64,000 nt of DNA from NCBI GenBank assembly GCA_031370005.1, contig JANMPT010000077.1:1-64000 (forward strand), given 5' to 3'. Both the position numbers and the translations under genes were made by a program. Below, piece by piece: positions 1-12,283 of the stretch (within the stretch, counting starts at the first letter, position 1; every line of letters starts with the position of its first letter). The notes beneath the pieces are model-generated. The model ran no database searches and was not told the DNA's origin. It was given only the letters and a program-made list of their open reading frames with translations. The DNA comes from Bdellovibrionales bacterium (GTDB lineage: Bacteria; Bdellovibrionota; Bdellovibrionia; Bdellovibrionales; Bdellovibrionaceae).

Positions 1-539
1 CATGTTCAGTTGATATAAATTCCTTAAGTCACGCTAACGAGCTGAATTTTATCATGTTTTTTAGTTCACTTTTGAGCGATTTCTCGATAGGGTCTGTTTT
101 GGGTGCCCGGTTCAATAACGCCTCTCACTGCCATTATTCAAGCTGTTCGAACTAGCGCCATAAAAAAAGTTCGGTGTCAGATTCGCTTCAGCAGGTTTTA
201 AATTCAAAAATTCAGATCCTTCTTGTTGAAAAGCTTAGGCCATTTCCACTCGCAATTAAATTTCTTCCTTCGCTGATGGATAAAACGGTACATCCCTTGT
301 TTAAGTCTCTATCGGCAATTCTGTATCCTTCTTTGATAATAAAGCGCGCGCTACTCAATCGCTTCATGGAGCGCCGTACTGCATATCATTCAGACCTAAT
401 TTTTTTTACGTGGATTTTGAAAAGTTCAAACGGAAGGAGTTCCTTTATCTTTTCGAGTGATCGACCAATTTCAATGATTCCATCTACGGTTCTTTTCCAA
501 GTGACAAGAATGTTCGTAAGCGGTCTATCAACCCCACGC

Positions 540-629
540 TTAGGTTTCGTCGCTGGGAGCACGATCTTTTGTAGCGTAGTTCAAATGATAGCTGGCACTT
601 TGTCCCCAACGGATACTAACGTAGGCCAT
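540..629 (-). pseudogene. Truncated relaxase N-terminus (29 codons then TAA)
   Basis: ATG at 629 overlaps the end of mobC, where a relaxase normally starts. Translation MAYVSIRWGQSASYHLNYATKDRAPSDET* resembles relaxase motif I (catalytic Tyr in HLNYA) but stops immediately. Confidence 0.5.
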
Positions 630-951
630 GAACACCTGCGAGCATTTGCTGCAGTTCCGAAATCGCCTTCAGCGCGTCTTGAAACTCAGAATACCAACCT
701 TCAAGGGCTCCACTGTTTACGCACCTTGCGATTTGGTTAATGTTATTCCCAATACGTCTAAGCTCGGTGCAAACCTGATGACGTTCTTCCGCGGCGAGAA
801 GGAGCCTCAGTTTCTTTTTACTGAAGTGACTCAATTTCAAAAGCTTGGGAATACTTAGTCCGGTAATTTCTACGTCAATTTTAAGTTGGGCAAATTCCTC
901 TTCCGTAAATCGAACCGTTGATCTTTTTTTTGTTTTAAGTATTTCATCCAT
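616..951 (-). CDS. mobC: Plasmid mobilisation relaxosome protein MobC (RHH + MobC domain)
   Basis: N-terminal TVRFTEEEF ribbon-helix-helix-like segment and the signature ELRRIGNNINQIAR; GGAGG RBS upstream. Confidence 0.85.
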   Translation of the reverse strand: MDEILKTKKRSTVRFTEEEFAQLKIDVEITGLSIPKLLKLSHFSKKKLRLLLAAEERHQVCTELRRIGNNINQIARCVNSGALEGWYSEFQDALKAISELQQMLAGVHGLR

Positions 952-1615: not shown

Positions 1616-4366
1616 ATGTCAGAAAAACAAACACGCCAAGAGATCATCGACAAGCGTCTGAAGGATGCCGGATGGGATGTTAATAATCCCACTCAGGTCA
1701 CTTCGGAGCACCCGGTATTGTACCAAAAAAGTGCGAGCCAAGGCACCGGGTATTGTGACTATGTTTTGCTCGGGCGTGATGGTGTGCCCATCGCAGTTGT
1801 TGAGGCAAAGAAAACTTCTCGAGAAGCTGAGGCTGGCCGCGAACAAACAAAGCAATATGCCGATGGCTTGGAAAAAGAAAATGTCCAGCGACCTCTAATT
1901 TTTTACACCAATGGCGTTGAGATTTTTTTCTGGGATGACAAACGCTATCCACCAAGAAAAGTGTACGGTTTTTTTACGCGTGATGATCTTGAACGCATCC
2001 TCTTTCAAAACAGTGAACGACGAGAGCCTTCAATGTCGTTGATTGATCGAAACATTGTTGAACGTCCTTACCAAATTGAAGCCATTCGTAGAGTCTGCGA
2101 AGCCTTTGAAAAAAGGAATCGCCGAAAAGCCCTTGTGGTGATGGCAACAGGGTCGGGCAAAACAAGAACCGCAATGGCCCTCATTGATGTTTTGATGAGA
2201 GCCAACTGGGTGAAGCGAGTTTTATTTCTTGCCGACAGAAAGGCCTTATTGAAGCAAGCAGACGGTGCCTTCAAGCAGTTTCTGCCAAATGCTCCTCGCA
2301 CGAAAGTTTCTAAAGACAATTGCCCACAAGACAAAAGAGTTTACTTGGCGACTTATCCGGCCATGCACGGAATCTATCCCACCATCTCGCCAGGATTCTT
2401 TGATCTTGTGATTGCTGATGAGTCCCATCGCAGTATTTATAAACGCTACAAAGAAATCTTCGATCACTTTGATGCCTACCAGATTGGCCTGACCGCTACG
2501 CCTATTGATTTCATTGAGCGCAACACGTTCAAACTTTTTGAGACCGAAGATGGCGCGCCCACTTACAATTACAGCTACGAAGAAGCCGTCGAGGCTAAAC
2601 ATCTTGTGACTTTTAAAGTTTTAAAAATTCAATCTCGCTTTCAGGTCGAAGGAATTAAGTCAGGGCAACTGCCGCTATCAATTCAAAAGAAACTTGTGGC
2701 GGAAGGTAAAGATCTTGAAGAAATCGACTTTGAAGGGACCGAGCTAGAAAAGACCGTTACCAATTCCGGCACCAATGAAGTCATCGTGCGCGAGTTCATG
2801 GAGCAATCCATCAAAGACGAATCGGGAACTCGCCCAGGTAAATCTATTATCTTTGCGATCTCCCACAAACACGCACTCAGGCTCGAGCACACATTTAATA
2901 TCCTTTACCCAGAATATAAAGGGCTTCTTGCGCGGGTTATTGACTCGCATGATCCCAGAGCTGCGACCGAGGGCGGTCTGCTGGATCAATTCAAAGACCC
3001 AGCCAATCCTCTAAAAGTGGCGATCTCGATTGATATGCTCGACACCGGTGTTGATATTCCTGAAGTCGTGAATCTGGTTTTTGCCAAACCTGTATTTTCA
3101 AGAGCCAAGTTCTGGCAAATGATTGGCCGAGGCACAAGACTCTGTAAGAATCTTTTTGGACCGGGCAATGACAAAACACATTTTCTTATCATCGACCACT
3201 GGGATAATTTTTCCTATTTCAGCATGACCCCAGAAGGTAAAGAACCAAATGCCACGATGTCAGTTCCCGAGAGACTTTTTGAAGCAAGACTCAAACGAGC
3301 TGAAGCTGCAATTCTCAACAACAATGTCGATGTGCTCAATAAAACTATTGAAGAATTAAAAGCTGACATCGTAGCCCTACCGAAAGACAGCGTGGTCGTT
3401 AAAGAAAAAATGCTCGCCGTCAACCAAACTACTGAGGCAGGCTATTGGAATAGCTTCAGTGAGCAAACTGTGCAGGATTTAAGAAAAAATATTCTGCCCA
3501 CAATGCGCGTCCGATCTGCTGAAGACTTTGATGCCATTCGCTTTGACATCGACATCATTGAATTTGAAACAGCTCTGCTGACAGCTGATTCTGATGCCGC
3601 AGAAAAAATTCAAGAGCGTATTCTTGAAAAAGTTAAAGAGTTACCACTGACACTAAATCAGGTGCGAGCCAAAGAAGTGGCTGTGACCAAAATCAAAACG
3701 CCAAAGTTTTGGAAGGACGCAAATTTTGAAAACTTGGAGGCCGCAAGGAAAGAACTTCGCGGGCTGATGAAGCATAGAACTCGCGCCACCACTGACATTG
3801 AAAAACTCGACATCGCCGATCAAATTCTAATTCGCGATACCGTTGAGTTTGGCCCAGAGATGGAACGCTCTACGACAGCTGAATACCGCCGCAAAGTGGA
3901 AGAGACTGTAAAGAGCCTGCTTGTCACCAATGAGGTCTTACAAAAACTCAAGCGCGGTGAAGAGCTTGACGAGTACGACGTTGAGTCCCTCACTAAACTT
4001 TTGCGCTCACAAGATCCCTATGTGACCGAAGAGCTTCTGCAGCGTGTGTACGACAATCACACTGCTAAATTTATTGACTTCATCTGCCATATTTTAGGGC
4101 TTCGCAAACTTCAAACTCGCACCGAGATTATATCTAAGGCGTTTGACGATTTTATCGCTGCACATAACGACTTGAAGGCCGATCAAATTCAGTTCTTAAT
4201 GCTCATCAAGAGCTTCTTCCTGGATCGCGGTAAAGTCGAACGTGAAGACCTCATCGGGCCACCCTTCACCAATATGCACCCCAGCGGAGTTCGAGGCCTA
4301 TTCCAACCCAACCAGCTTAATCAGGTTTTGAGCCTAATCGAACAAATAGGGCAATCAGATCAATAA
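1616..4366 (+). CDS. hsdR: Type I restriction enzyme R subunit (EcoAI/EcoEI-like)
   Basis: Nuclease motif CDYVL...VEAKK, Walker A MATGSGKT, DESH, TATP, QMIGRGTR, EcoEI_R_C-like C-terminus. Confidence 0.95.
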   Translation: MSEKQTRQEIIDKRLKDAGWDVNNPTQVTSEHPVLYQKSASQGTGYCDYVLLGRDGVPIAVVEAKKTSREAEAGREQTKQYADGLEKENVQRPLIFYTNGVEIFFWDDKRYPPRKVYGFFTRDDLERILFQNSERREPSMSLIDRNIVERPYQIEAIRRVCEAFEKRNRRKALVVMATGSGKTRTAMALIDVLMRANWVKRVLFLADRKALLKQADGAFKQFLPNAPRTKVSKDNCPQDKRVYLATYPAMHGIYPTISPGFFDLVIADESHRSIYKRYKEIFDHFDAYQIGLTATPIDFIERNTFKLFETEDGAPTYNYSYEEAVEAKHLVTFKVLKIQSRFQVEGIKSGQLPLSIQKKLVAEGKDLEEIDFEGTELEKTVTNSGTNEVIVREFMEQSIKDESGTRPGKSIIFAISHKHALRLEHTFNILYPEYKGLLARVIDSHDPRAATEGGLLDQFKDPANPLKVAISIDMLDTGVDIPEVVNLVFAKPVFSRAKFWQMIGRGTRLCKNLFGPGNDKTHFLIIDHWDNFSYFSMTPEGKEPNATMSVPERLFEARLKRAEAAILNNNVDVLNKTIEELKADIVALPKDSVVVKEKMLAVNQTTEAGYWNSFSEQTVQDLRKNILPTMRVRSAEDFDAIRFDIDIIEFETALLTADSDAAEKIQERILEKVKELPLTLNQVRAKEVAVTKIKTPKFWKDANFENLEAARKELRGLMKHRTRATTDIEKLDIADQILIRDTVEFGPEMERSTTAEYRRKVEETVKSLLVTNEVLQKLKRGEELDEYDVESLTKLLRSQDPYVTEELLQRVYDNHTAKFIDFICHILGLRKLQTRTEIISKAFDDFIAAHNDLKADQIQFLMLIKSFFLDRGKVEREDLIGPPFTNMHPSGVRGLFQPNQLNQVLSLIEQIGQSDQ

Positions 4367-4437
4367 ATAGGGTAATAACGACTTTACATTACCCCTTTAG
4401 TCAGTTATATTACCCTTATTAGCCATAGGGGTAATAT
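4344..4437. promoter_or_regulatory. Array of GGGTAAT/ATTACCC repeats upstream of the Fic gene (putative operator)
   Basis: GGGCAAT 4349-4355, GGGTAAT 4370-4376, ATTACCC 4388-4394, ATTACCC 4409-4415, GGGTAAT 4429-4435. Confidence 0.55.
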
Positions 4438-5479
4438 GCGCTCGCTTACAGAAAAGTATCTAAAAAACCTAAGCCTTTCCACAGATGAGGCCGCTGCCAT
4501 GCGGACCTTGGGCGAGTATCAAGGTAAGCAAGCCCTCTTCTATAAACAGTCGCCCGAAACCCTAGAGTCCCTGAAACAAACGGCAGTTATAGAATCCAGT
4601 GAATCATCGAACCGCCTTGAGGGTATCACAGCTCCCAAAGAGCGCATTGAGGCCATTGTTCTTAAGAACTCCACCCCCAAGGATAGGTCCGAGCAAGAAA
4701 TCGCAGGATACCGTGATGCCCTATCGTTAATCCATGACTCTGCGGAACACATGGAGTTTTCAACCAATGTGATTCTACAGTTTCACTCAATGGTCTATCG
4801 CTTCATGCCCAACCCCGGCGGCAAATGGAAAAGCACAAACAACGAGATCGTTGAAAAGCATCCTGATGGCACTAAGCGGGTTCGATTTGTTCCCACCTCA
4901 GCCCATCTTACGCCGCAAGCAATGGATGATCTGATTACCAATTATAAAACTGCGATTCACAGTCTTCATCAAGATCCACTCATTGTGGTGCCGCTCACTA
5001 TTCTTGATTTTTTGTGCATCCATCCTTTTTCTGATGGCAATGGACGTGTGGCAAGGCTTCTTACGCTCACGCTGCTTTATCACTTTGACCTTCAAGTGGG
5101 CCGCTACATCAGTCTTGAGCGCATCTTTGAAGAATCAAAAGAAAGCTATTACGAGACTCTGGAAAAAAGCTCACAGGGCTGGCATGAAGGAAAACACGAT
5201 GTTCGCCCTTGGCTCAATTATTTTTGGGGTGCGCTAACTCGCGCTTACCGCGAATTTGAAGAGCGTGTAGGCAATATCAAATCAGGTCGCGGCTCTAAGA
5301 CTGAACAAATACGACAAGCTGTTGAAAGAAAAATAGGACCATTCTCAATCTCTGAGGTCGAGGATGTTTGCCCAGGCATTAGCCGCGATATGGTCCGAAA
5401 TGTTTTACGCCAAATGAAAGATGAAAATTTAATTGAATCCACTGGTAAAGGACGAAGTGCCAAGTGGATAAAAAAATGA
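4436..5479 (+). CDS. Fic family protein with C-terminal winged HTH
   Basis: Canonical Fic motif HPFSDGNGRVAR; N-terminal inhibitory motif SNRLEG; C-terminal wHTH-like segment ending GKGRSAKW. Confidence 0.92.
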   Translation: MRSLTEKYLKNLSLSTDEAAAMRTLGEYQGKQALFYKQSPETLESLKQTAVIESSESSNRLEGITAPKERIEAIVLKNSTPKDRSEQEIAGYRDALSLIHDSAEHMEFSTNVILQFHSMVYRFMPNPGGKWKSTNNEIVEKHPDGTKRVRFVPTSAHLTPQAMDDLITNYKTAIHSLHQDPLIVVPLTILDFLCIHPFSDGNGRVARLLTLTLLYHFDLQVGRYISLERIFEESKESYYETLEKSSQGWHEGKHDVRPWLNYFWGALTRAYREFEERVGNIKSGRGSKTEQIRQAVERKIGPFSISEVEDVCPGISRDMVRNVLRQMKDENLIESTGKGRSAKWIKK

Positions 5480-5486
5480 GGACTCA

Positions 5487-6986
5487 ATGTTAGCACAAGA
5501 ACTTAAAAGTCAGGTCGATAAGCTGTGGAATCTTTTTTGGTCCGGTGGAATTGCCAATCCACTGACAGCCATCGAACAAATTTCTTATTTAATTTTTATG
5601 AAACGCCTCGACGAAGAGGATCTCAAACGCAAAGCCGACGCCGAGTGGACTAAGAAAAAATATGAATCCATTTTTCCATCTGAAAAACTTCGCTGGTCAC
5701 GGTGGAAACATCTTGAGGCCGAAGAGATGCTCAAGCACGTTCGGGACAAAGTGTTTCCGTTCATCAAAAAACTCAATGGCGAAACAGGTAATAGTTTTTC
5801 TCATCAGATGAAAGACGCTGTTTTTATAATTCCCAAAGTCAGTCTCTTGGTTGAGGCCGTTGAGATTATTGATAATTTAAAAATCACAGAGCAGAATCAG
5901 GATACCCAAGGCGACATATACGAATACTTGCTATCAGAACTTCAGTCCTCCGGCAAGAACGGTCAGTTTAGAACACCAAGGCATATTATTAAAATGATGT
6001 GTGGCTTGGTGAATCCAAAGTTGGGTCAAACAATTTGCGATCCTGCTTGTGGCACCGGTGGTTTTTTAATTGGAGCTTATCAACATATTCTTAAAGCAAA
6101 CACATCACCCACTCACATCAAGATTGATGAGGATGGCACTGAGCATGGACTTGTTGGTGATAAGATCAACGACAAGAAACTTTGGAACTTTCTGAAGGCA
6201 AAAACATTCTTTGGCTATGACTTCGATTCAACCATGCTTCGCATCGGCACAATGAACATGGTTCTACATGGTATCGACCAGCCAAATATCGAATACATGG
6301 ATACGCTTTCAAAAAGGTTCGAGGAGCAGAATAAATACGATGTCATTCTCGCTAATCCGCCGTTTAAGGGCAGCATCGACAAGGGTGACGTACATGAGTC
6401 GCTCACTAGAGCTGTGAAGTCCACAAAGACAGAGCTGCTCTTTGTCCTGCAAATGGAAAGGCTCCTTCAGAATGGCGGTCGTTGCGCTGTGATTGTGCCT
6501 GACGGCGTATTGTTTGGTTCAAGCAATGCCCATGTCGCCGTTCGTAAAAAGATCGTCGATGAGTGTCAGCTAGAGGGTGTGATCTCAATGCCGGGCGGAG
6601 TATTCAAACCCTATGCGGGGGTATCAACTGCCATATTGATATTTACCAAGGGCGGCGAAACCGACAAAGTTTGGTTTTACGATATGCAAGCCGATGGGTT
6701 TACCCTTGACGACAAGCGTGATCGAACCAGTTCCAATGACATTCCTGACATTATAGAAAAATGGAACAAGCGAGCGAGTCTGAAGTCCCCAGACAAGGGC
6801 GATAAATGGTTTTGGGTTCAGAAAGCTAAGATTCTTGAATCAGATTACGATTTATCAATTACGAAATACAAATTGGTTTCCATTGAAACAAATAAACATG
6901 AGAAACCGAGTGAAATAATTGAGCGACTACTGGTTTTGGAGAAAGAAATTTCAAAAGGACTTGATAGCCTGAGAGGACACCAATAG
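5487..6986 (+). CDS. hsdM: Type I RM methyltransferase subunit M
   Basis: GQFRTPRH, DPACGTGG (SAM binding), NPPF (m6A catalytic). Confidence 0.95.
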   Translation: MLAQELKSQVDKLWNLFWSGGIANPLTAIEQISYLIFMKRLDEEDLKRKADAEWTKKKYESIFPSEKLRWSRWKHLEAEEMLKHVRDKVFPFIKKLNGETGNSFSHQMKDAVFIIPKVSLLVEAVEIIDNLKITEQNQDTQGDIYEYLLSELQSSGKNGQFRTPRHIIKMMCGLVNPKLGQTICDPACGTGGFLIGAYQHILKANTSPTHIKIDEDGTEHGLVGDKINDKKLWNFLKAKTFFGYDFDSTMLRIGTMNMVLHGIDQPNIEYMDTLSKRFEEQNKYDVILANPPFKGSIDKGDVHESLTRAVKSTKTELLFVLQMERLLQNGGRCAVIVPDGVLFGSSNAHVAVRKKIVDECQLEGVISMPGGVFKPYAGVSTAILIFTKGGETDKVWFYDMQADGFTLDDKRDRTSSNDIPDIIEKWNKRASLKSPDKGDKWFWVQKAKILESDYDLSITKYKLVSIETNKHEKPSEIIERLLVLEKEISKGLDSLRGHQ

Positions 6987-8134
6987 TGGCAGCAGAAGTA
7001 CTTCAGAAACTATGTACCTTTTTGAACGGGGGAACACCGTCAAAAAAGAACTCCGAGTTCTTTCAAGGTGATATTCCTTGGATTAGTAGTGCCGACATAA
7101 GCAATGGCTTTGTTACGCAGCCAAGACACCACATTACAAAGCAAGCAATTGAACAATCCGCAACGAATCTGGTCCCAAAGGGAACTGTCTTACTTGTAAC
7201 GCGAACTGGGGTTGGCAAAGTTACAGTTGCACCCTTTGATCTTTGTTTTTCTCAGGACATCACCGCAATCATTCCACAAAAAAACGTCAATTTGATTCCA
7301 GAATACCTAGCCTATTTTTTGAGAAGCTGTGAGTCCGCAATAAGGTCGCAGCAGCGTGGAGCAACGATTCAAGGAGTAACAAGAGACACTCTTACTAACC
7401 TCAAGATTCCTCTTCTTAATAGCCTCCAGCAAAAGCGAATTGTCGATAATCTCAATTTAGCGAAGTCTCTGGAAATCAAGCGTTCAGAATCAATAATGGA
7501 GCTGGATAATTATATCCGCTCTCTATTTATAGAAATGTTTGGCGATCCAACGACCAATCCGATGCGCTGGCCGATTAAAAAATTGAGTGAATTGGCTAAT
7601 AAGATCACTGATGGAACACACAAAACGCCCAAATACCAGGATTCGGGAATTATTTTCTTATCAGCGAAAAACGTTAAGAACGGCGAATTAGATCAGGTTG
7701 GGCCAAAATATATTTCTGAAAAAGAGCACCAAGATCTGATTAGGCGGTGTAAGCCAGAAAAAGGTGATATTGTACTTACAAAAAGCGGAAGCCTGGGCGA
7801 TCCAGCCATCGTAAAGTTTGATTTTGAATTTAGTATATTCGAAAGTTTAGCGTTAATTAAGCCGAAACCAGAGGTTCTCTCTACCTATTTATATAGTTAT
7901 CTAGCTCTTCCGCAGACTAAAGTAAGATTGCTTAAGGAGCAAAAAGGGATAGGAGTGCGACACTTGCACCTCGTGGACCTCAGGGAACTGGAAGTTCAGT
8001 TGCCTCCGATGGAACTACAAAAAACTTTTAGTGATAAGCTAAAACAAGTAAATGTTTTAAAAGAGACCTTAAGGAAAAGTAGACAAGACGTGAACAGCCT
8101 GTTCACGTCACTATTGTCTGAGGCATTTCAGTGA
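6986..8134 (+). CDS. hsdS: Type I RM specificity subunit S
   Basis: Two TRD repeats (GGTPSKK..., DGTHKTP...), conserved LFIEMFGDP and LPPMELQ segments; GTG start overlaps the hsdM stop. Confidence 0.92.
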   Translation: MAAEVLQKLCTFLNGGTPSKKNSEFFQGDIPWISSADISNGFVTQPRHHITKQAIEQSATNLVPKGTVLLVTRTGVGKVTVAPFDLCFSQDITAIIPQKNVNLIPEYLAYFLRSCESAIRSQQRGATIQGVTRDTLTNLKIPLLNSLQQKRIVDNLNLAKSLEIKRSESIMELDNYIRSLFIEMFGDPTTNPMRWPIKKLSELANKITDGTHKTPKYQDSGIIFLSAKNVKNGELDQVGPKYISEKEHQDLIRRCKPEKGDIVLTKSGSLGDPAIVKFDFEFSIFESLALIKPKPEVLSTYLYSYLALPQTKVRLLKEQKGIGVRHLHLVDLRELEVQLPPMELQKTFSDKLKQVNVLKETLRKSRQDVNSLFTSLLSEAFQ

Positions 8135-8662
8135 GCAACGAGTCCTCAGGTAACCTTTTGGATGACTTCAAAGCTAAATTCCCTGAATTGAAAGCGGAGT
8201 ACGATGACGTTTTCAAAAGACTCAATCTCTATCTTGAGGCGAATGATAAGACTGAAGTTCTAGCTCAGTTCCTGATGATGTCTGCATTTGCTCCAGAGGA
8301 CAGCCCCTCTTTTAATTCAGAGTACCGCGAATCGTCGCCAATGAGTCACTGTTTGTCGGGGCTGGCACTCAATTCTGCAATGGAAAATCCTGATTCATTT
8401 GACGCAGGTAATTTCATGCCATTTGTTTGAAGACATCCAGGCTCTAATTTCAAAGCACCACTTCTTAATGATGGTCGAGTCTAACCGATCAACTTCGGCT
8501 TACGACGTGGCTCATATTGCACGACTACAGGCAATAATGAGTCAAATGAACGGAGCTGAATTGGTAGGAACTTTTGTCTCTCTAAGGTTCGTGGGAGCAT
8601 TATTTGGAGGACTCCTTTCCATCGAAGCCAGTTACCGCATTCGTAGAATTGCCAGTCCTTAA
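8131..8662 (+). pseudogene. Frameshifted/truncated hypothetical gene (ORFs 8131-8430 and 8399-8662)
   Basis: Start is coupled to the hsdS stop (GTGA). The two overlapping ORFs join if one T is removed at CCATTTGTTTGAA (~8419-8431). Confidence 0.45.
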
Positions 8663-8764: not shown

Positions 8765-9376
8765 TTGAACAGAAAAAATATTACCATTCAAATTATGCAT
8801 CATGACATTTCAGAAATGGAAATACGGACAGCGATATTGAAGGAGATTCATAAATCAAGAAAACGAGGTCTTGTTGTGGAAGAACTTGGTTTGTGTCAAG
8901 GATGCTCGAGAATCGATGTTGCATATATCGGGAATGATTTAATTGGATTTGAGATAAAAAGTGACTATGACTCTCTCAAGAGATTGTCTAGCCAGATTGA
9001 ATTTTATAATGCTGTTTTTAATAAAGTTTTTTTAGTTACCACAGAACGACATTTCTCTGCCGCCATTAAAGCGGTGCCGAACACTTGGGGTATTTATCTA
9101 ATTCGGCGTGAAAATGAAAAAATTAAAATTAGAAAAGTACGTCCAGGAAAAAAAAATAACTTAGTAAGCAGTTCAAAATTAGTTCAGCTTCTATGGAAAG
9201 AGGAAATGCTAAATTTATTTAATAAATTGAGCATAGATCAGCCATTTTGGGGAAAAACCAAGAATGAGCTTTATCAAATTCTTGTCGATAATTTTGACCT
9301 TAAATTTATTCAAAAACTTGTCTCGAATACTCTTAAGAACCGTAGTAACTGGAGATCTGTTCAAGAACTAGCGTAA
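8765..9376 (+). CDS. sce7726-family protein, PD-(D/E)xK nuclease-like (start may be ATG 8795)
   Basis: EELG...RIDVA...GFEIKSDYDSLKRL..Q...Y..VF pattern, WGI and LLWKEE motifs typical of the family. Confidence 0.8.
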   Translation: MNRKNITIQIMHHDISEMEIRTAILKEIHKSRKRGLVVEELGLCQGCSRIDVAYIGNDLIGFEIKSDYDSLKRLSSQIEFYNAVFNKVFLVTTERHFSAAIKAVPNTWGIYLIRRENEKIKIRKVRPGKKNNLVSSSKLVQLLWKEEMLNLFNKLSIDQPFWGKTKNELYQILVDNFDLKFIQKLVSNTLKNRSNWRSVQELA

Positions 9377-10391
9377 CATGGTGATTTAATTCGGCAGAAA
9401 TCCAGGTGGTGGCATTTCCCGGTGTATCTTCGTCGCAATTTTTGATATAATCATCGCCCCATGAGAATTCACAACCTTTATAGCTCGCATGTTTTAGAAC
9501 CAATTTTGCGAGTTTAGGATTTTGAAATTTGCTAGCTGTTTTTTTGTTGCTCTCACCCTTAAAAATAATGACGTTATCTTTATCTGAATACCTAATTCGG
9601 CTAGATCTTGTCATTGTCTTAGGATTAATATTCTGAACACTAGGATTTAAAACTGTGTAATCGGAATACACGATATCATTTTTTGCTACCAAAACTTGCC
9701 AGAGGTCCCAGTCCAGTCTTTTTTGAAAAGAGACTTCATTAGAATCGAATTCAGACATTTTTTCCGGCATACAAGCTGAAGAAATAATGAGTTTTTCGTA
9801 ATGAACCTTTTTGGTAATTTCTTTGATTGCTGTTTCAGCCAAACTTTTCGCGGAAGTGATGCTTTCAATTTTTTCTAGATCTAGGACAATATAAATATTA
9901 TTTTCAGGAAATACATCACTGACCAGATTCGCAATATCATCTACATGAAGAGAAATTGCTTCCAAGTAGTCTTTTGAAATTCGAATACACAAGTCTCTTC
10001 CACGAAGAAGACCAAATGTTTTGATGCTATCAATGTATCCATCCTCTTCAGCCCGGTCGAAGCTTATAACTGGAGCATAGTTAGTCCCTAGCTTGTTGAG
10101 TTCCTGGAATAAAAATTCCGAATAATGTCTTTCTAAAATTTTAACATTTGGATCTGTTTCGAAATCTATAAAACATGCAATATCATTTTCAAAATGCTTC
10201 CCAATGTACTTCGCTATTCTAGAGAACTGCTCCTTGTGCCCACATTTCCATTTCGGCGGGGATAAATCATAATCTAAGTCTGGATCCGTTATTCGTAGAA
10301 GTGGCCTAATCTGACTTTTAATATTATTCGAAAGATTTTTTAACCCTTTAAACTCTCCTAATTTTCCACGCAATATTGGAACATACATCAT
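9333..10391 (-). CDS. Beta family protein (P4 beta / sce7725-like)
   Basis: N-terminal YVPILRGKLGE..GL, internal YSDY, IRYS, C-terminal FSWGD..I...PGNATTW....NHH signatures. Confidence 0.85.
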   Translation of the reverse strand: MMYVPILRGKLGEFKGLKNLSNNIKSQIRPLLRITDPDLDYDLSPPKWKCGHKEQFSRIAKYIGKHFENDIACFIDFETDPNVKILERHYSEFLFQELNKLGTNYAPVISFDRAEEDGYIDSIKTFGLLRGRDLCIRISKDYLEAISLHVDDIANLVSDVFPENNIYIVLDLEKIESITSAKSLAETAIKEITKKVHYEKLIISSACMPEKMSEFDSNEVSFQKRLDWDLWQVLVAKNDIVYSDYTVLNPSVQNINPKTMTRSSRIRYSDKDNVIIFKGESNKKTASKFQNPKLAKLVLKHASYKGCEFSWGDDYIKNCDEDTPGNATTWISAELNHHVTLVLEQISSYYGS

Positions 10392-10394
10392 TTT

Positions 10395-11561
10395 TTATGC
10401 TCCAAACATCTTTCTAACAGATCCTTCACCCAAGAAGCTTCTCATTATTTTATAATTTTTAATTTCTCTCTGTAATCTTCCAGCAACTATACTTGGATGA
10501 ATCCTTAATCTCTGACTTAGATTCAAAACTGATTGTTCAGAACGATCTTTTAAAGCTGAACTATTCTTCCAAATGTTTAATGGAATAAAAGAATCTTTTG
10601 CTAAAAAGTCGGCTTCCTTCTCAAGAACATCAACATAGTCTGTCTCATCAAGATCATCACAAAAAATAAAGTGTTCGGAAGATAGGTGCTTAAAAACATG
10701 AGCTAACTCATGAAGTAATGTGAACCAAAAGCTATCTAAGCGGTCATGTCTCAGAGACAAAGCAATGACAGGCAAGCCATCTTCTCTTAGCAGAGCTACG
10801 CCATCGACTTTCAAGCCACTTAAATACTTTTCTACAATAAGTAAAATCCCATTTTTACTTAGAAGCTCAACAGCCAGCAGAGGCCCCTTATCTAAATAAC
10901 TCAGATTAGCGACCTCTTTCAGAAAAGATTTAGTAATGAATTCTTTCCTAAAAGACCCTTTGTTTGCAGGAACTGTTTTGTAAGAGACATTAAGAATTCT
11001 GGACAACCACGCCACGAGAAGCCCTTCGTAGCCCTCGCTATTATTAGATCTTCTGAATAACATTTGCGAAGACAGATTTAGCACAGGGGCAATGAATTGC
11101 TGTAAACTCGAAGCATTATTGGTTTTAATCCAACCCCTAGAAAGCATCTCCTTAGCTGGAAGTTTTGAAAGATCAATAGTCAAATTTTCAGCGGGGATAT
11201 CATCGTCACTCAGTAAAATATCAGCAGAAATATCTAATCCTTTAGATAAAGCCTTAATCATATTTAAGGATAATGGTCTTTTGCCTGAAAGGATTTCTGA
11301 AACCTTACTTTTGTTGCCAATATAAGGAAGCAAATCAGATCTATCCAAGCCCTGCTCTTCCATTCTAAAAAGAATCGCCTCGACTGGAGTAGGTTTTTCA
11401 AATTTGAAACGATCCTTTTCATATCTTTCGACTAAGACTGAAAGGAGTATAATATTCTTAGCCTCGGTAGAGTCTGGCTGAGGATTTTGACTCATCAGCT
11501 TATCTATTGCGACTAAGGAGTCGTCATATTCTTTTTTATTAGTAATAGGCTTGATATCCAT
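10395..11561 (-). CDS. higA: HigA-type XRE antitoxin fused to ImmA/IrrE (M78) metallopeptidase
   Basis: IKPI...EY..., LVERYE, PTPVEAILFRMEEQGL...KSKVSEILSGKRPLSL HTH; HEXXH (FTLLHELAH) plus EKEAD; GGAGG RBS before ATG 11561. Confidence 0.9.
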   Translation of the reverse strand: MDIKPITNKKEYDDSLVAIDKLMSQNPQPDSTEAKNIILLSVLVERYEKDRFKFEKPTPVEAILFRMEEQGLDRSDLLPYIGNKSKVSEILSGKRPLSLNMIKALSKGLDISADILLSDDDIPAENLTIDLSKLPAKEMLSRGWIKTNNASSLQQFIAPVLNLSSQMLFRRSNNSEGYEGLLVAWLSRILNVSYKTVPANKGSFRKEFITKSFLKEVANLSYLDKGPLLAVELLSKNGILLIVEKYLSGLKVDGVALLREDGLPVIALSLRHDRLDSFWFTLLHELAHVFKHLSSEHFIFCDDLDETDYVDVLEKEADFLAKDSFIPLNIWKNSSALKDRSEQSVLNLSQRLRIHPSIVAGRLQREIKNYKIMRSFLGEGSVRKMFGA

Positions 11562-11572
11562 ATTTCCTCCTT

Positions 11573-11872
11573 TCATTGAAAACTCTTTTTCGAATACTCT
11601 GCATGTGTTCCAGCCCATTTCACGTTCACAGCTCCGGTTGACTTATCAGTTCCATGCAAAACCTGAGTAACTAGTCTATATGAATTGCCATTCACATTAA
11701 AAATAACAACATTAAAACCCAGGAAGCTCGCAGTTTGATACCGGTTCTTAATATCTTGAGATGTTTTCCATACTGCATTTTCCACTTCGCTAACCCATGC
11801 ATTGACCCAGTTTCTCACGGGCGGATGCTTCTGCTTAAATGCCGTTAATAAATTTCTTCCCGTGAGAAGCAT
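11573..11872 (-). CDS. higB: HigB-family mRNA interferase toxin
   Basis: W...VENAVW.T..DIK..Y..AS...VIFNVNGNSYRLV...WAGTHAEY signature; start at ATG 11872 with RBS. Confidence 0.9.
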   Translation of the reverse strand: MLLTGRNLLTAFKQKHPPVRNWVNAWVSEVENAVWKTSQDIKNRYQTASFLGFNVVIFNVNGNSYRLVTQVLHGTDKSTGAVNVKWAGTHAEYSKKSFQ

Positions 11873-11930
11873 CTTCCCTCCTAGAACGATACCAATACAC
11901 TTTACGGAAGTTCCCTTAAATAGTAAAGGA

Positions 11931-11955
11931 AAATGTTCCCAAAAAAGGAACATTT
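11931..11955. promoter_or_regulatory. Inverted repeat, putative HigA operator
   Basis: AAATGTTCC-CAAAAAA-GGAACATTT, perfect 9-bp arms ~60-80 bp upstream of higB. Confidence 0.65.
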
Positions 11956-12049
11956 ACTAAAATGATACATATGTTCATCTTAAAGTTGGCTATATTGGAT
12001 TTGTAGGGCTGTGCCTGACGGACCATCCCCGAAAGAAAACCGCATTCCA

Positions 12050-12080
12050 ACTCAGCCACCACTCAGCCAAAACTCAGTCA
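12050..12080. repeat. Three 11-bp-phased direct repeats, putative integrase arm-type sites
   Basis: ACTCAGCCA (12050), ACTCAGCCA (12061), ACTCAGTCA (12072), ~125-155 bp from the tRNA-His 3' end. Confidence 0.6.
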
Positions 12081-12205
12081 ACGAGACTGACGCCGGCTGA
12101 TTTTCAGTGACGCTTTCGCGAAAGCAATACCGCTAAACCCTTGAAACCTTTGGGTTGTGTTTTTCGGTACTTGGAACATTTTTGGGGAAAGTCTTAAAAG
12201 AAAAT

Positions 12206-12283
12206 TGGGGTGAATGACGGGACTTGAACCCGCGACCCTCGGAATCACAATCCGATGCTCTAACCAACTGAGCTACAATCACC
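12206..12283 (-). tRNA. tRNA-His (GUG)
   Basis: Reverse complement GGTGATTGTAGCTCAGTTGGTTAGAGCATCGGATTGTGATTCCGAGGGTCGCGGGTTCAAGTCCCGTCATTCACCCCA: cloverleaf, GTG anticodon, G-1, encoded CCA. Confidence 0.97.

What the first reader, a model, noticed from the sequence alone, without database searches (positions are those of the whole stretch)
8765..11955. Candidate new anti-phage system: HigB - HigA/ImmA peptidase - beta, convergent with an sce7726-like nuclease
Seen: an AT-rich block of higB, higA-HEXXH peptidase and a beta-family gene in one apparent operon (11-bp and 3-bp gaps). It converges on a PD-(D/E)xK gene whose 3' end overlaps beta by 44 bp, and it sits in a tRNA-integrated island beside a type I RM system. 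Established: in satellite phage P4, beta neutralises the Gop toxin, and gop-beta-cII has been reported as anti-phage. XRE-ImmA/IrrE fusions act as antitoxins in phage-defence TA systems such as RosmerTA. Inference: this is a gop-beta-cII-like architecture in which a HigB/HigA-peptidase pair takes the Gop slot. It would have two effectors (an RNase and a DNase) with a protease/beta sensing layer. That the convergent gene corresponds to P4 cII is my recollection and needs checking.
Basis: partly seen in the sequence, partly recalled or inferred. Interest (0 to 1): 0.82.

Follow-up and report, generated by a model that had tools for sequence, protein, structure and literature searches.

The report
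PD-lambda-2 defence variant retaining P4 cII
These four genes are mostly a known anti-virus system of bacteria (PD-lambda-2) plus a nuclease-like partner gene; this fuller form is widespread and may be older than the stripped-down E. coli form that was tested in the lab.

Summary
The anatomy is as described, but this is not a new system. higB, higA-M78 peptidase and beta match PADLOC PD-Lambda-2 A, B and C in canonical order, a validated abortive-infection system. The convergent gene is a P4 cII/sce7726 PD-(D/E)xK protein. A 2026 preprint already lists HigB, HTH-metallopeptidase, beta ('TIM-B') and a convergent REase as parts of such systems, and a GNAT-2B-2C-cII sibling has been shown to protect against phages. 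What this check adds: the four-gene form recurs across phyla (8 of 27 decidable A-B-C genome loci; 13 of 80 cII-anchored metagenome loci). Its HigB keeps the family's C-terminal motif in 22 of 23 loci, against 5 of 23 cII-less loci. The E. coli type, where the peptidase was the toxin and HigB the antidote, has lost both that motif and cII. So this form may use HigB as a true RNase; ancestry is suggested, not shown (AU p=0.074). It lies on an integrative mobilizable element at tRNA-His. The scan noted the beta/cII overlap before on other DNA.

The parts
8765..9376 (+). P4 cII / sce7726-family PD-(D/E)xK nuclease-fold protein, convergent with beta; true start probably ATG 8795 or 8816
   Evidence: PADLOC cll 5.5e-31; NF033832 161.6 bits; 25% identical to P4 cII; E40/D51/E63/K65 invariant in 44 homologues; model pLDDT 92.9, Foldseek top hits are PD-(D/E)xK proteins such as SfsA and PaqCI, best E 2.7e-4
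9333..9376 (.). 44-bp tail-to-tail overlap of cII and beta
   Evidence: sequence; 44 bp is the commonest overlap, 20 of 78 metagenome cII/beta pairs
9333..10391 (-). PD-lambda-2C / P4 beta family ('TIM-B') TIM-barrel protein
   Evidence: PF14350 7e-57; PD-Lambda-2_C 1.5e-52, P4-type beta 8e-13; 26% to the E. coli type; TIM-barrel model, pLDDT 89.9
10395..11561 (-). PD-lambda-2B: HigA-like N-terminus and Xre HTH fused to an ImmA/IrrE (M78) HExxH metallopeptidase
   Evidence: PD-Lambda-2_B 6.7e-133 over 1-386; 41% to the E. coli type over the whole length; N-terminus matches solved E. coli-type HigA, 5ifg and 5ycl, about 1e-13; RmrA only 1e-7 over the peptidase part
11573..11872 (-). PD-lambda-2A: HigB (PF09907) with the C-terminal YRL...GTHxEY motif intact (R66, H90, Y93); longest ORF starts at 11953
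   Evidence: PD-Lambda-2_A 7.4e-36; alignment with E. coli K-12 HigB; modelled complex with residues 1-130 of 2B
11931..11955 (.). perfect 9-bp inverted repeat with 7-bp spacer, 59-83 bp upstream of the likely higB start; candidate operator for the 2B HTH
   Evidence: I5; operator role is inference
12049..12080 (.). three 10-bp direct repeats at 11-bp spacing near the element end; possible integrase arm sites
   Evidence: D1; two similar words lie beside the far att on contig C110, but the word is not enriched over shuffles there
12201..12213 (.). att core: 13 bp at the tRNA-His 3' end, repeated once elsewhere in the genome (C110:2482, next to a tyrosine integrase)
   Evidence: similarity to same-genus genomes stops here
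12206..12282 (-). tRNA-His (GTG), integration site
1616..8134 (+). type I restriction-modification hsdR (1616-4366), Fic/SoFic-like gene (4436-5479), hsdM (5487-6986), hsdS (6986-8134): neighbouring cargo, not part of the system
616..951 (-). MobC relaxosome accessory gene of the carrier element
   Evidence: PF05713 2.9e-9
537..659 (-). 5' end of a relaxase gene; matches the last 123 bp of contig C110, which carries the whole relaxase, an excisionase, the integrase and the att

Best explanation
A PD-lambda-2-family abortive-infection module in its four-gene form (higB - higA/M78 peptidase - beta >< cII), carried with a type I RM system on an integrative mobilizable element at tRNA-His. Most likely working: (1) 2B's HigA-like N-terminus binds HigB and keeps it inactive, and its HTH represses the operon at the upstream palindrome (binding modelled; repression inferred). 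(2) Infection is relayed through the TIM-barrel beta/2C, which the tested type needs for defence but not for neutralisation, and switches on the M78 peptidase (inferred). (3) The peptidase cuts the HigA/HTH part, as ImmA/IrrE enzymes cut HTH repressors, which frees HigB to cleave ribosome-bound mRNA and stop the infected cell (inferred; about 50%). (4) cII is an obligate-looking partner of beta and acts as a second, DNA-cutting arm or as a counter-transcribed regulator (about even; untested). Family membership and anti-phage role about 85%; steps 2-4 are not shown.
For: PADLOC A, B and C all hit in canonical order. PD-lambda-2 gives Abi defence and needs C against lambda-vir (PMC9519451 section 9). 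The four-gene layout recurs: 8 of 27 decidable A-B-C genome loci, in Bdellovibrionota, Acidobacteriota, Chloroflexota, Planctomycetota and Nitrospinota; 13 of 80 cII-anchored metagenome loci (11 distinct by 2B sequence); 2 of the 4 other beta-bearing genomes among 401 of the host phylum. cII faces a beta gene in 78 of 80 metagenome loci (the other 2 end at the contig edge) and 45 of 62 viral loci. The HigB motif is kept in 22 of 23 four-gene loci and matches K-12 HigB, a proven mRNase. HExxH is present in all 118 2B proteins checked. HigB with 2B(1-130) scored 0.84 against a best control of 0.01; runs agreed in at least 95% of contacts, partner pLDDT at least 89; that mark was reached by 51 of 78 solved and 2 of 108 mismatched pairs, and a like complex (E. 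coli HigBA) is solved, so the pass may be from memory. A GNAT-2B-2C-cII sibling cut plaquing tenfold or more in both replicates for 7 of 28 phages (PMC13586616 File S4). gop-beta-cII protects against lambda and P1.
Against: No experiment exists on this locus or on any HigB-bearing four-gene form that I found. In the one dissected PD-lambda-2, 2B was toxic and 2A rescued it, which is the reverse of step 3. 19 of 27 decidable A-B-C genome loci lack cII and the type works without it, so cII is dispensable in at least one lineage. 43 of 80 2B relatives have neither beta nor cII, so A-B is also a free-standing TA pair. 16 of 62 viral cII loci have no beta. That the conserved HigB residues are catalytic is my inference; a search for mutagenesis on this HigB family gave nothing usable.
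Confidence: 0.7

Rival explanations
1. It works like the tested E. coli PD-lambda-2: the HigA-peptidase fusion is the killer and HigB is the restraint; the intact-looking HigB motif is incidental.
For: This is the only measured polarity in the family. 2B is the best-conserved part, 41% to the type.
Against: The tested 2A lacks the C-terminal motif (type identified by the paper's primers; alignment), whereas 22 of 23 four-gene loci keep it. Keeping it across phyla is hard to explain if HigB is only a binder.
Confidence: 0.3
2. cII is a regulator, not an effector: convergent overlapping transcription or DNA binding tunes the higB-higA-beta operon, and the nuclease fold is secondary.
For: The TIM-B preprint reports, citing the P4 work, that this gene regulates the Gop-beta operon, possibly at transcript level (the original paper was not read). 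The overlap is conserved: 76 of 78 pairs overlap, median 44 bp.
Against: E40, D51, E63 and K65 are invariant in 44 homologues, which points to catalysis. P4's own beta and cII do not overlap (27-bp gap with a terminator).
Confidence: 0.4
3. The module mainly stabilises or defends the mobile element itself (addiction, or exclusion of rival elements) and phage defence is minor.
For: It sits on an integrase/relaxase element. HigBA pairs can stabilise plasmids.
Against: All three tested relatives protect against phages. The neighbours are RM and a SoFic-like gene.
Confidence: 0.12
4. Chance juxtaposition of an ordinary higBA-type pair and an unrelated beta/cII pair in a defence island.
For: Both halves occur apart: A-B alone in 43 of 80 loci; beta><cII with other upstream genes in many loci.
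Against: The same order, strand and tight spacing recur in 23 loci from several phyla, and these cluster on the 2B tree (3 changes against a shuffled mean of 11.3; 0 of 500 shuffles as low, though near-copies lower such counts).
Confidence: 0.03

Closest known systems
PD-lambda-2 (Vassallo et al. 2022, PMC9519451; PADLOC PD-Lambda-2 A/B/C)
   Same: Three genes, same families and order, tight operon; 30%, 41% and 26% identity to a near-type E. coli locus.
   Different: The window adds an overlapping convergent cII gene; the two E. coli loci viewed have none (a SIR2 gene or a hypothetical gene follows). The window's HigB keeps the C-terminal motif that the tested 2A lacks.
gop-beta-cII of satellite P4 (Rousset et al. 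2022, PMC9122126; PADLOC/DefenseFinder Rst_gop_beta_cll)
   Same: beta >< cII convergent core; cII 25% identical, beta 22%.
   Different: No gop; higB-higA/peptidase is upstream instead. The beta is closer to PD-Lambda-2_C (1.5e-52) than to the P4 beta model (8e-13). P4's genes do not overlap. The carrier is not a P4 satellite.
TIM-B systems (bioRxiv 10.64898/2026.10.19.760177, section 33)
   Same: Lists HigB as one effector, an HTH-metallopeptidase gene between effector and TIM-B, and an overlapping convergent REase; proposes proteolytic derepression.
   Different: Computational only. The text does not name PD-lambda-2 and does not report HigB motif loss in the cII-less lineage. Its Figure 6B, which I could not see, may draw this exact layout.
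P4-hotspot 'PD-Lambda-2B + 2C + cll' with an acyltransferase (pFD413; PMC13586616, Nucleic Acids Res 2026)
   Same: 2B, 2C and cII together; protects against lambda, P1, CLB_P2 and four T7-like phages.
   Different: A GNAT acyltransferase replaces HigB. The authors call it a potential mix of two systems; no gene was dissected in the parts I read.
RosmerTA (RmrA ImmA-peptidase antitoxin)
   Same: HTH plus M78 peptidase next to a toxin, used in phage defence.
   Different: RmrA models match only the peptidase region at 1e-7 or worse. No HigA-type N-terminus, beta or cII.

Membership tests
PD-lambda-2 | A: HigB-like gene first | tested here: met
   PD-Lambda-2_A 7.4e-36, model 1-94 of 94; PF09907 above cut-off
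PD-lambda-2 | B: HigA/Xre HTH fused to an ImmA/IrrE peptidase | tested here: met
   PD-Lambda-2_B 6.7e-133, model 1-396 of 402; HExxH invariant
PD-lambda-2 | C: P4 beta-like gene third, same strand | tested here: met
   PD-Lambda-2_C 1.5e-52; PF14350; 3-bp gap
PD-lambda-2 | Abi defence; B toxic, rescued by A; C needed for defence | not testable with these tools
   needs bench work; polarity may differ because HigB keeps its motif
gop-beta-cII | gop toxin upstream of beta | tested here: not met
   no PADLOC gop hit on any of the 11 island proteins scanned; the gene upstream of beta is 2B
gop-beta-cII | beta convergent with cII | tested here: met
   cll 5.5e-31
TIM-B systems | PF14350 TIM-barrel gene behind an effector, optional HTH-metallopeptidase, optional convergent REase | tested here: met
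TIM-B systems | specific kinship of beta to deazaguanine transglycosylases (TGT/DpdA) with an equivalent active site | tested here: inconclusive
   TGT chains reach Z 12.5, rmsd 4.3, about 260 aligned residues (the longest alignments in the list) but tie with other TIM barrels; profile against the host's own TGT gave probability 0.1%. D244-Y245, R137 and R225 are invariant in 35 homologues
PD-(D/E)xK nuclease (cII/sce7726) | acidic E...D...ExK motif on the restriction-endonuclease fold | tested here: met
   nuclease activity itself not testable
RosmerTA | RmrA full-length match with a cognate RmrT | tested here: not met
   RmrA hits cover about 110 residues at E 1e-7 or worse; no RmrT hit
Integrative mobilizable element | tyrosine integrase, excisionase, relaxase/MobC, att repeat at a tRNA | tested here: met
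   the link between contigs C110 and C99 rests on a 123-bp overlap, and the assembly offers an alternative path

The most novel reading that the evidence does not exclude
The four-gene form is the ancestral, complete PD-lambda-2: an active HigB mRNase gated by a HigA-peptidase fusion plus a cII DNase, both wired through the beta TIM barrel. The catalogued E. coli system is a derived relic that lost cII, then lost HigB catalysis, and so inverted toxin and antitoxin roles. PD-lambda-2 and gop-beta-cII would then be one modular family with a fixed beta><cII core.
Probability: 0.35. Interest if true: 0.6.

Novelty: new variant of a known kind. Interest (0 to 1): 0.33.

Why it matters
As a discovery of a new defence system it does not stand. 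Its value is comparative. The odd result for PD-lambda-2 (the 'antitoxin' was toxic and the 'toxin' rescued it) has had no explanation in the papers I found. Loss of the HigB motif in the tested lineage offers one, and this locus is a natural control with the motif and cII intact. It also gives a direct way to test what beta and cII do, which is unresolved for P4 gop-beta-cII as well. Detection tools that call PD-lambda-2 on three genes would miss the fourth.

Tried and rejected
New system: rejected by PADLOC and papers. RosmerTA membership: rejected. A second tRNA-His on contig C51 as the far att: rejected, it is a different tRNA with no integrase nearby; the att is on C110. Hidden divergent cII behind cII-less loci: a broader profile found none in L007-L111, and 19 downstream ORFs from 19 cII-less A-B-C loci (16 convergent ones and three others) gave no sce7726 hit; some were SIR2, HEPN, ParE, RT or housekeeping genes. 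Monophyly of four-gene loci on the 2B tree: not rejected (p-AU 0.074, 34 chosen rows, LG+G4 quick tree), so 'ancestral' stays a hypothesis. The beta tree is the quick tree only, with long branches including the window's. TGT was not in the top 50 of Foldseek or of the wide search. phmmer of HigB against PDB sequences found nothing. Promoter-like sites were at chance level, 10 against 9.8. The repeat word near the far att was not enriched. No full-length 2B relative in 50,697 phage records; 7 near-full-length ones in plasmids were not followed up. Paper searches for the exact HigB four-gene form found only the papers cited; subscription papers, figures and bioRxiv supplements were not visible. 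The ECOR42 type contig itself could not be fetched; L176 stands in for it. RNA expression was not examined.
Full report
Observation. The four ORFs, the 11-bp and 3-bp gaps and the 44-bp convergent overlap are all in the sequence. The block is 35.8% GC in a 43.6% genome; 2 of 2927 equal-sized genome windows are as low. higB most likely starts at 11872, not 11953 (AGGAGG site; homologue starts). That leaves a perfect 9-7-9 palindrome at 11931-11955 in the upstream region.

Identity. PADLOC assigns the operon to PD-lambda-2: A 7.4e-36, B 6.7e-133, C 1.5e-52, in that order, and the convergent gene to cll of gop-beta-cII at 5.5e-31. NCBIfam calls the latter sce7726 family above cut-off, RefSeq gives P4 cII the same name, and BLASTP aligns them at 25% over 185 residues. 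Its homologues carry Pfam PF26915, which earlier scan notes name Phage_P4_cII. Its E40, D51, E63 and K65 are invariant in 44 sequences, and a confident model (pLDDT 92.9) finds PD-(D/E)xK folds with modest E-values. Beta folds as a TIM barrel (pLDDT 89.9). TGT is among the tied best matches in a second look (Z 12.5, about 260 residues), but I could not single it out.

What is published. Vassallo et al. 2022 (PMC9519451; passages, section 9 and supplementary table rows seen, figures not) describe PD-lambda-2 as HigB-like, HigA-peptidase and a P4 antitoxin relative giving Abi defence; 2B alone was toxic, 2A rescued it, and 2C was needed for defence but not for neutralisation. Rousset et al. 2022 (PMC9122126, passages) show gop-beta-cII protects against lambda and P1. 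A 2026 preprint (10.64898/2026.10.19.760177; section 33 in full and passages, Figure 6B and supplements not visible) defines TIM-B systems with HigB among the effectors, an HTH-metallopeptidase in between and an overlapping convergent REase. A 2026 NAR paper (PMC13586616, passages and supplement rows; its preprint, section 8) cloned an acyltransferase-2B-2C-cII locus; plaque ratios were 0.1 or lower in both replicates for 7 of 28 phages. I also saw passages of PMC10440598, PMC11980606, PMC11869752, 10.1101/2024.10.26.620412 and 10.1101/2023.04.06.535777. Ghisotti 1990 was not read. Searches found no text describing or testing the HigB-bearing four-gene form as such.

Recurrence. HigB is adjacent in 78 of 80 and beta in 34 of 80. 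By class: 8 four-gene, 19 three-gene with at least 500 bp of room and no cII, 43 A-B only, 10 undecidable. Of 80 viral loci I scored the 27 full-length ones: 1 had 2B-beta><cII without HigB, 3 three-gene, 21 without beta, 2 undecidable. From the cII side, the best 80 of 509 metagenome loci face a beta gene in 78 (2 end at the contig edge); 76 of 78 overlap, median and mode 44 bp (20 of 78). Thirteen are full A-B-C><cII (two are duplicates), 12 have a shorter HTH-peptidase, 15 another upstream gene, and 38 are cut short. Of 62 viral cII loci, 45 face beta, 16 do not, 1 is cut, and none has the HigB form. Upstream genes in 54 scanned cases included SIR2, FRG, DUF6932, a HigB-like family, M78 and S24 repressors; most had no Pfam hit. 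In the host phylum 5 of 401 genomes have beta; of the four others, two carry the full four-gene set, one peptidase-beta><cII, one a broken pair. These samples are biased towards the window's relatives and are not prevalence estimates.

The difference from the tested type. E. coli locus L176 matches the paper's cloning primers with 0, 1 and 2 mismatches and spans the same 2625 bp as the ECOR42 ORFs, so it stands in for the type. No cII follows it or the second E. coli form, and the cloned region had under 400 bp of flank. Its 2A lacks the C-terminal motif that E. coli K-12 HigB, a proven mRNase, carries at R68, H88 and Y91 (counted); the window keeps R66, H90 and Y93. A pattern test found the motif in 22 of 23 four-gene loci (the miss has one substitution), 5 of 23 three-gene loci (one miss is a split gene), 4 of 8 undecided, 54 of 60 A-B-only and 3 of 3 undecided A-B loci. 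That these residues are catalytic is inferred from conservation; one search gave no direct paper. On 2B trees the three-gene loci form one clade (98-99% local support; L075 falls outside), a motif-less clade of 20 rows nests in it, and four-gene loci lie around it. This suggests the order A-B pair, joining to beta><cII, loss of cII, decay of HigB. The AU test did not reject four-gene monophyly (p 0.074) and the outgroup was not clean, so the order is a hypothesis.

Mechanism. The 2B N-terminus resembles solved HigA, and a complex of HigB with 2B(1-130) scored 0.84 against a best control of 0.01 (contacts agree at 95% or more, partner pLDDT at least 89; 51 of 78 solved and 2 of 108 mismatched pairs reach the mark; a like complex is solved, so this shows likeness). 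I therefore favour canonical restraint of an active HigB, autorepression at the palindrome, and release by the fused peptidase after a beta-dependent signal, by analogy with ImmA cleavage of HTH repressors and the preprint's proposal. The measured polarity of the E. coli type is the main rival. cII is either a second effector or a convergent regulator. None of these steps is shown for this locus.

Carrier. Similarity to same-genus genomes ends at the tRNA-His 3' end. A 13-bp word there occurs only once more in the genome, on contig C110 beside a tyrosine integrase, an excisionase and a relaxase. C110's last 123 bp match window 537-659, next to mobC. This implies an integrative mobilizable element of about 15 kb. 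The assembly also offers a shorter path through window 142-536, so the junction needs long reads.

Verdict. A real, intact, known kind of system: PD-lambda-2 plus the cII partner of beta. It is a new variant of a known kind with modest interest, which rests on the intact HigB motif and retained cII as a test of why the E. coli type looks inverted.

Noticed in passing
window 1-659 and contig C110 (L167): Contigs C99, C110 and C98 share a 141-bp end, and C110 rejoins at window 537-659. Two paths exist: one with integrase, excisionase and whole relaxase, one 395-bp path without them. Could be a deletion variant in a mixed population or an assembly artefact.
   Followed up: partly
window 4436-5479 (+): A Fic/SoFic-like gene (PADLOC SoFic 3e-42) sits between hsdR and hsdM of the type I RM system.
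   Followed up: no
window 8131-8430 and 8399-8662 (+): Two short ORFs after hsdS with no family hit in Pfam, PADLOC, NCBIfam or PHROGs.
   Followed up: no
L012:6434-7951, L175:8704-10221, L029:6368-7903, L018:6321-6704: In several cII-less PD-lambda-2 loci another defence-type gene converges on beta where cII would be (SIR2, HEPN/Toprim-N, ParE); may be island clustering or replacement of the second arm.
   Followed up: partly
cII/beta pairs in L177-L256: Nearly all overlap lengths are 2 modulo 3 (29, 32, 35, 38, 41, 44...), a fixed frame phase, pointing to an inherited overlap.
   Followed up: partly
L203, L224, L241, L245; L219, L227, L243, L246, L265: Sibling systems: a PF05015-like HigB or a DUF6932 gene upstream of a shorter HTH-peptidase, then beta><cII.
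   Followed up: partly
L269, L270, L297, L300, L304, L305: In prophages beta><cII often lies directly behind an S24 (CI-type) repressor gene with no separate effector upstream.
   Followed up: no
L168 (contig C98): An MNT-HEPN toxin-antitoxin pair and an HTH-SLT transglycosylase gene on the contig adjoining the element's far end.
   Followed up: no
L167:598-2064: An IS1380-family transposase just outside the far att, with a related copy on contig C71.
   Followed up: no
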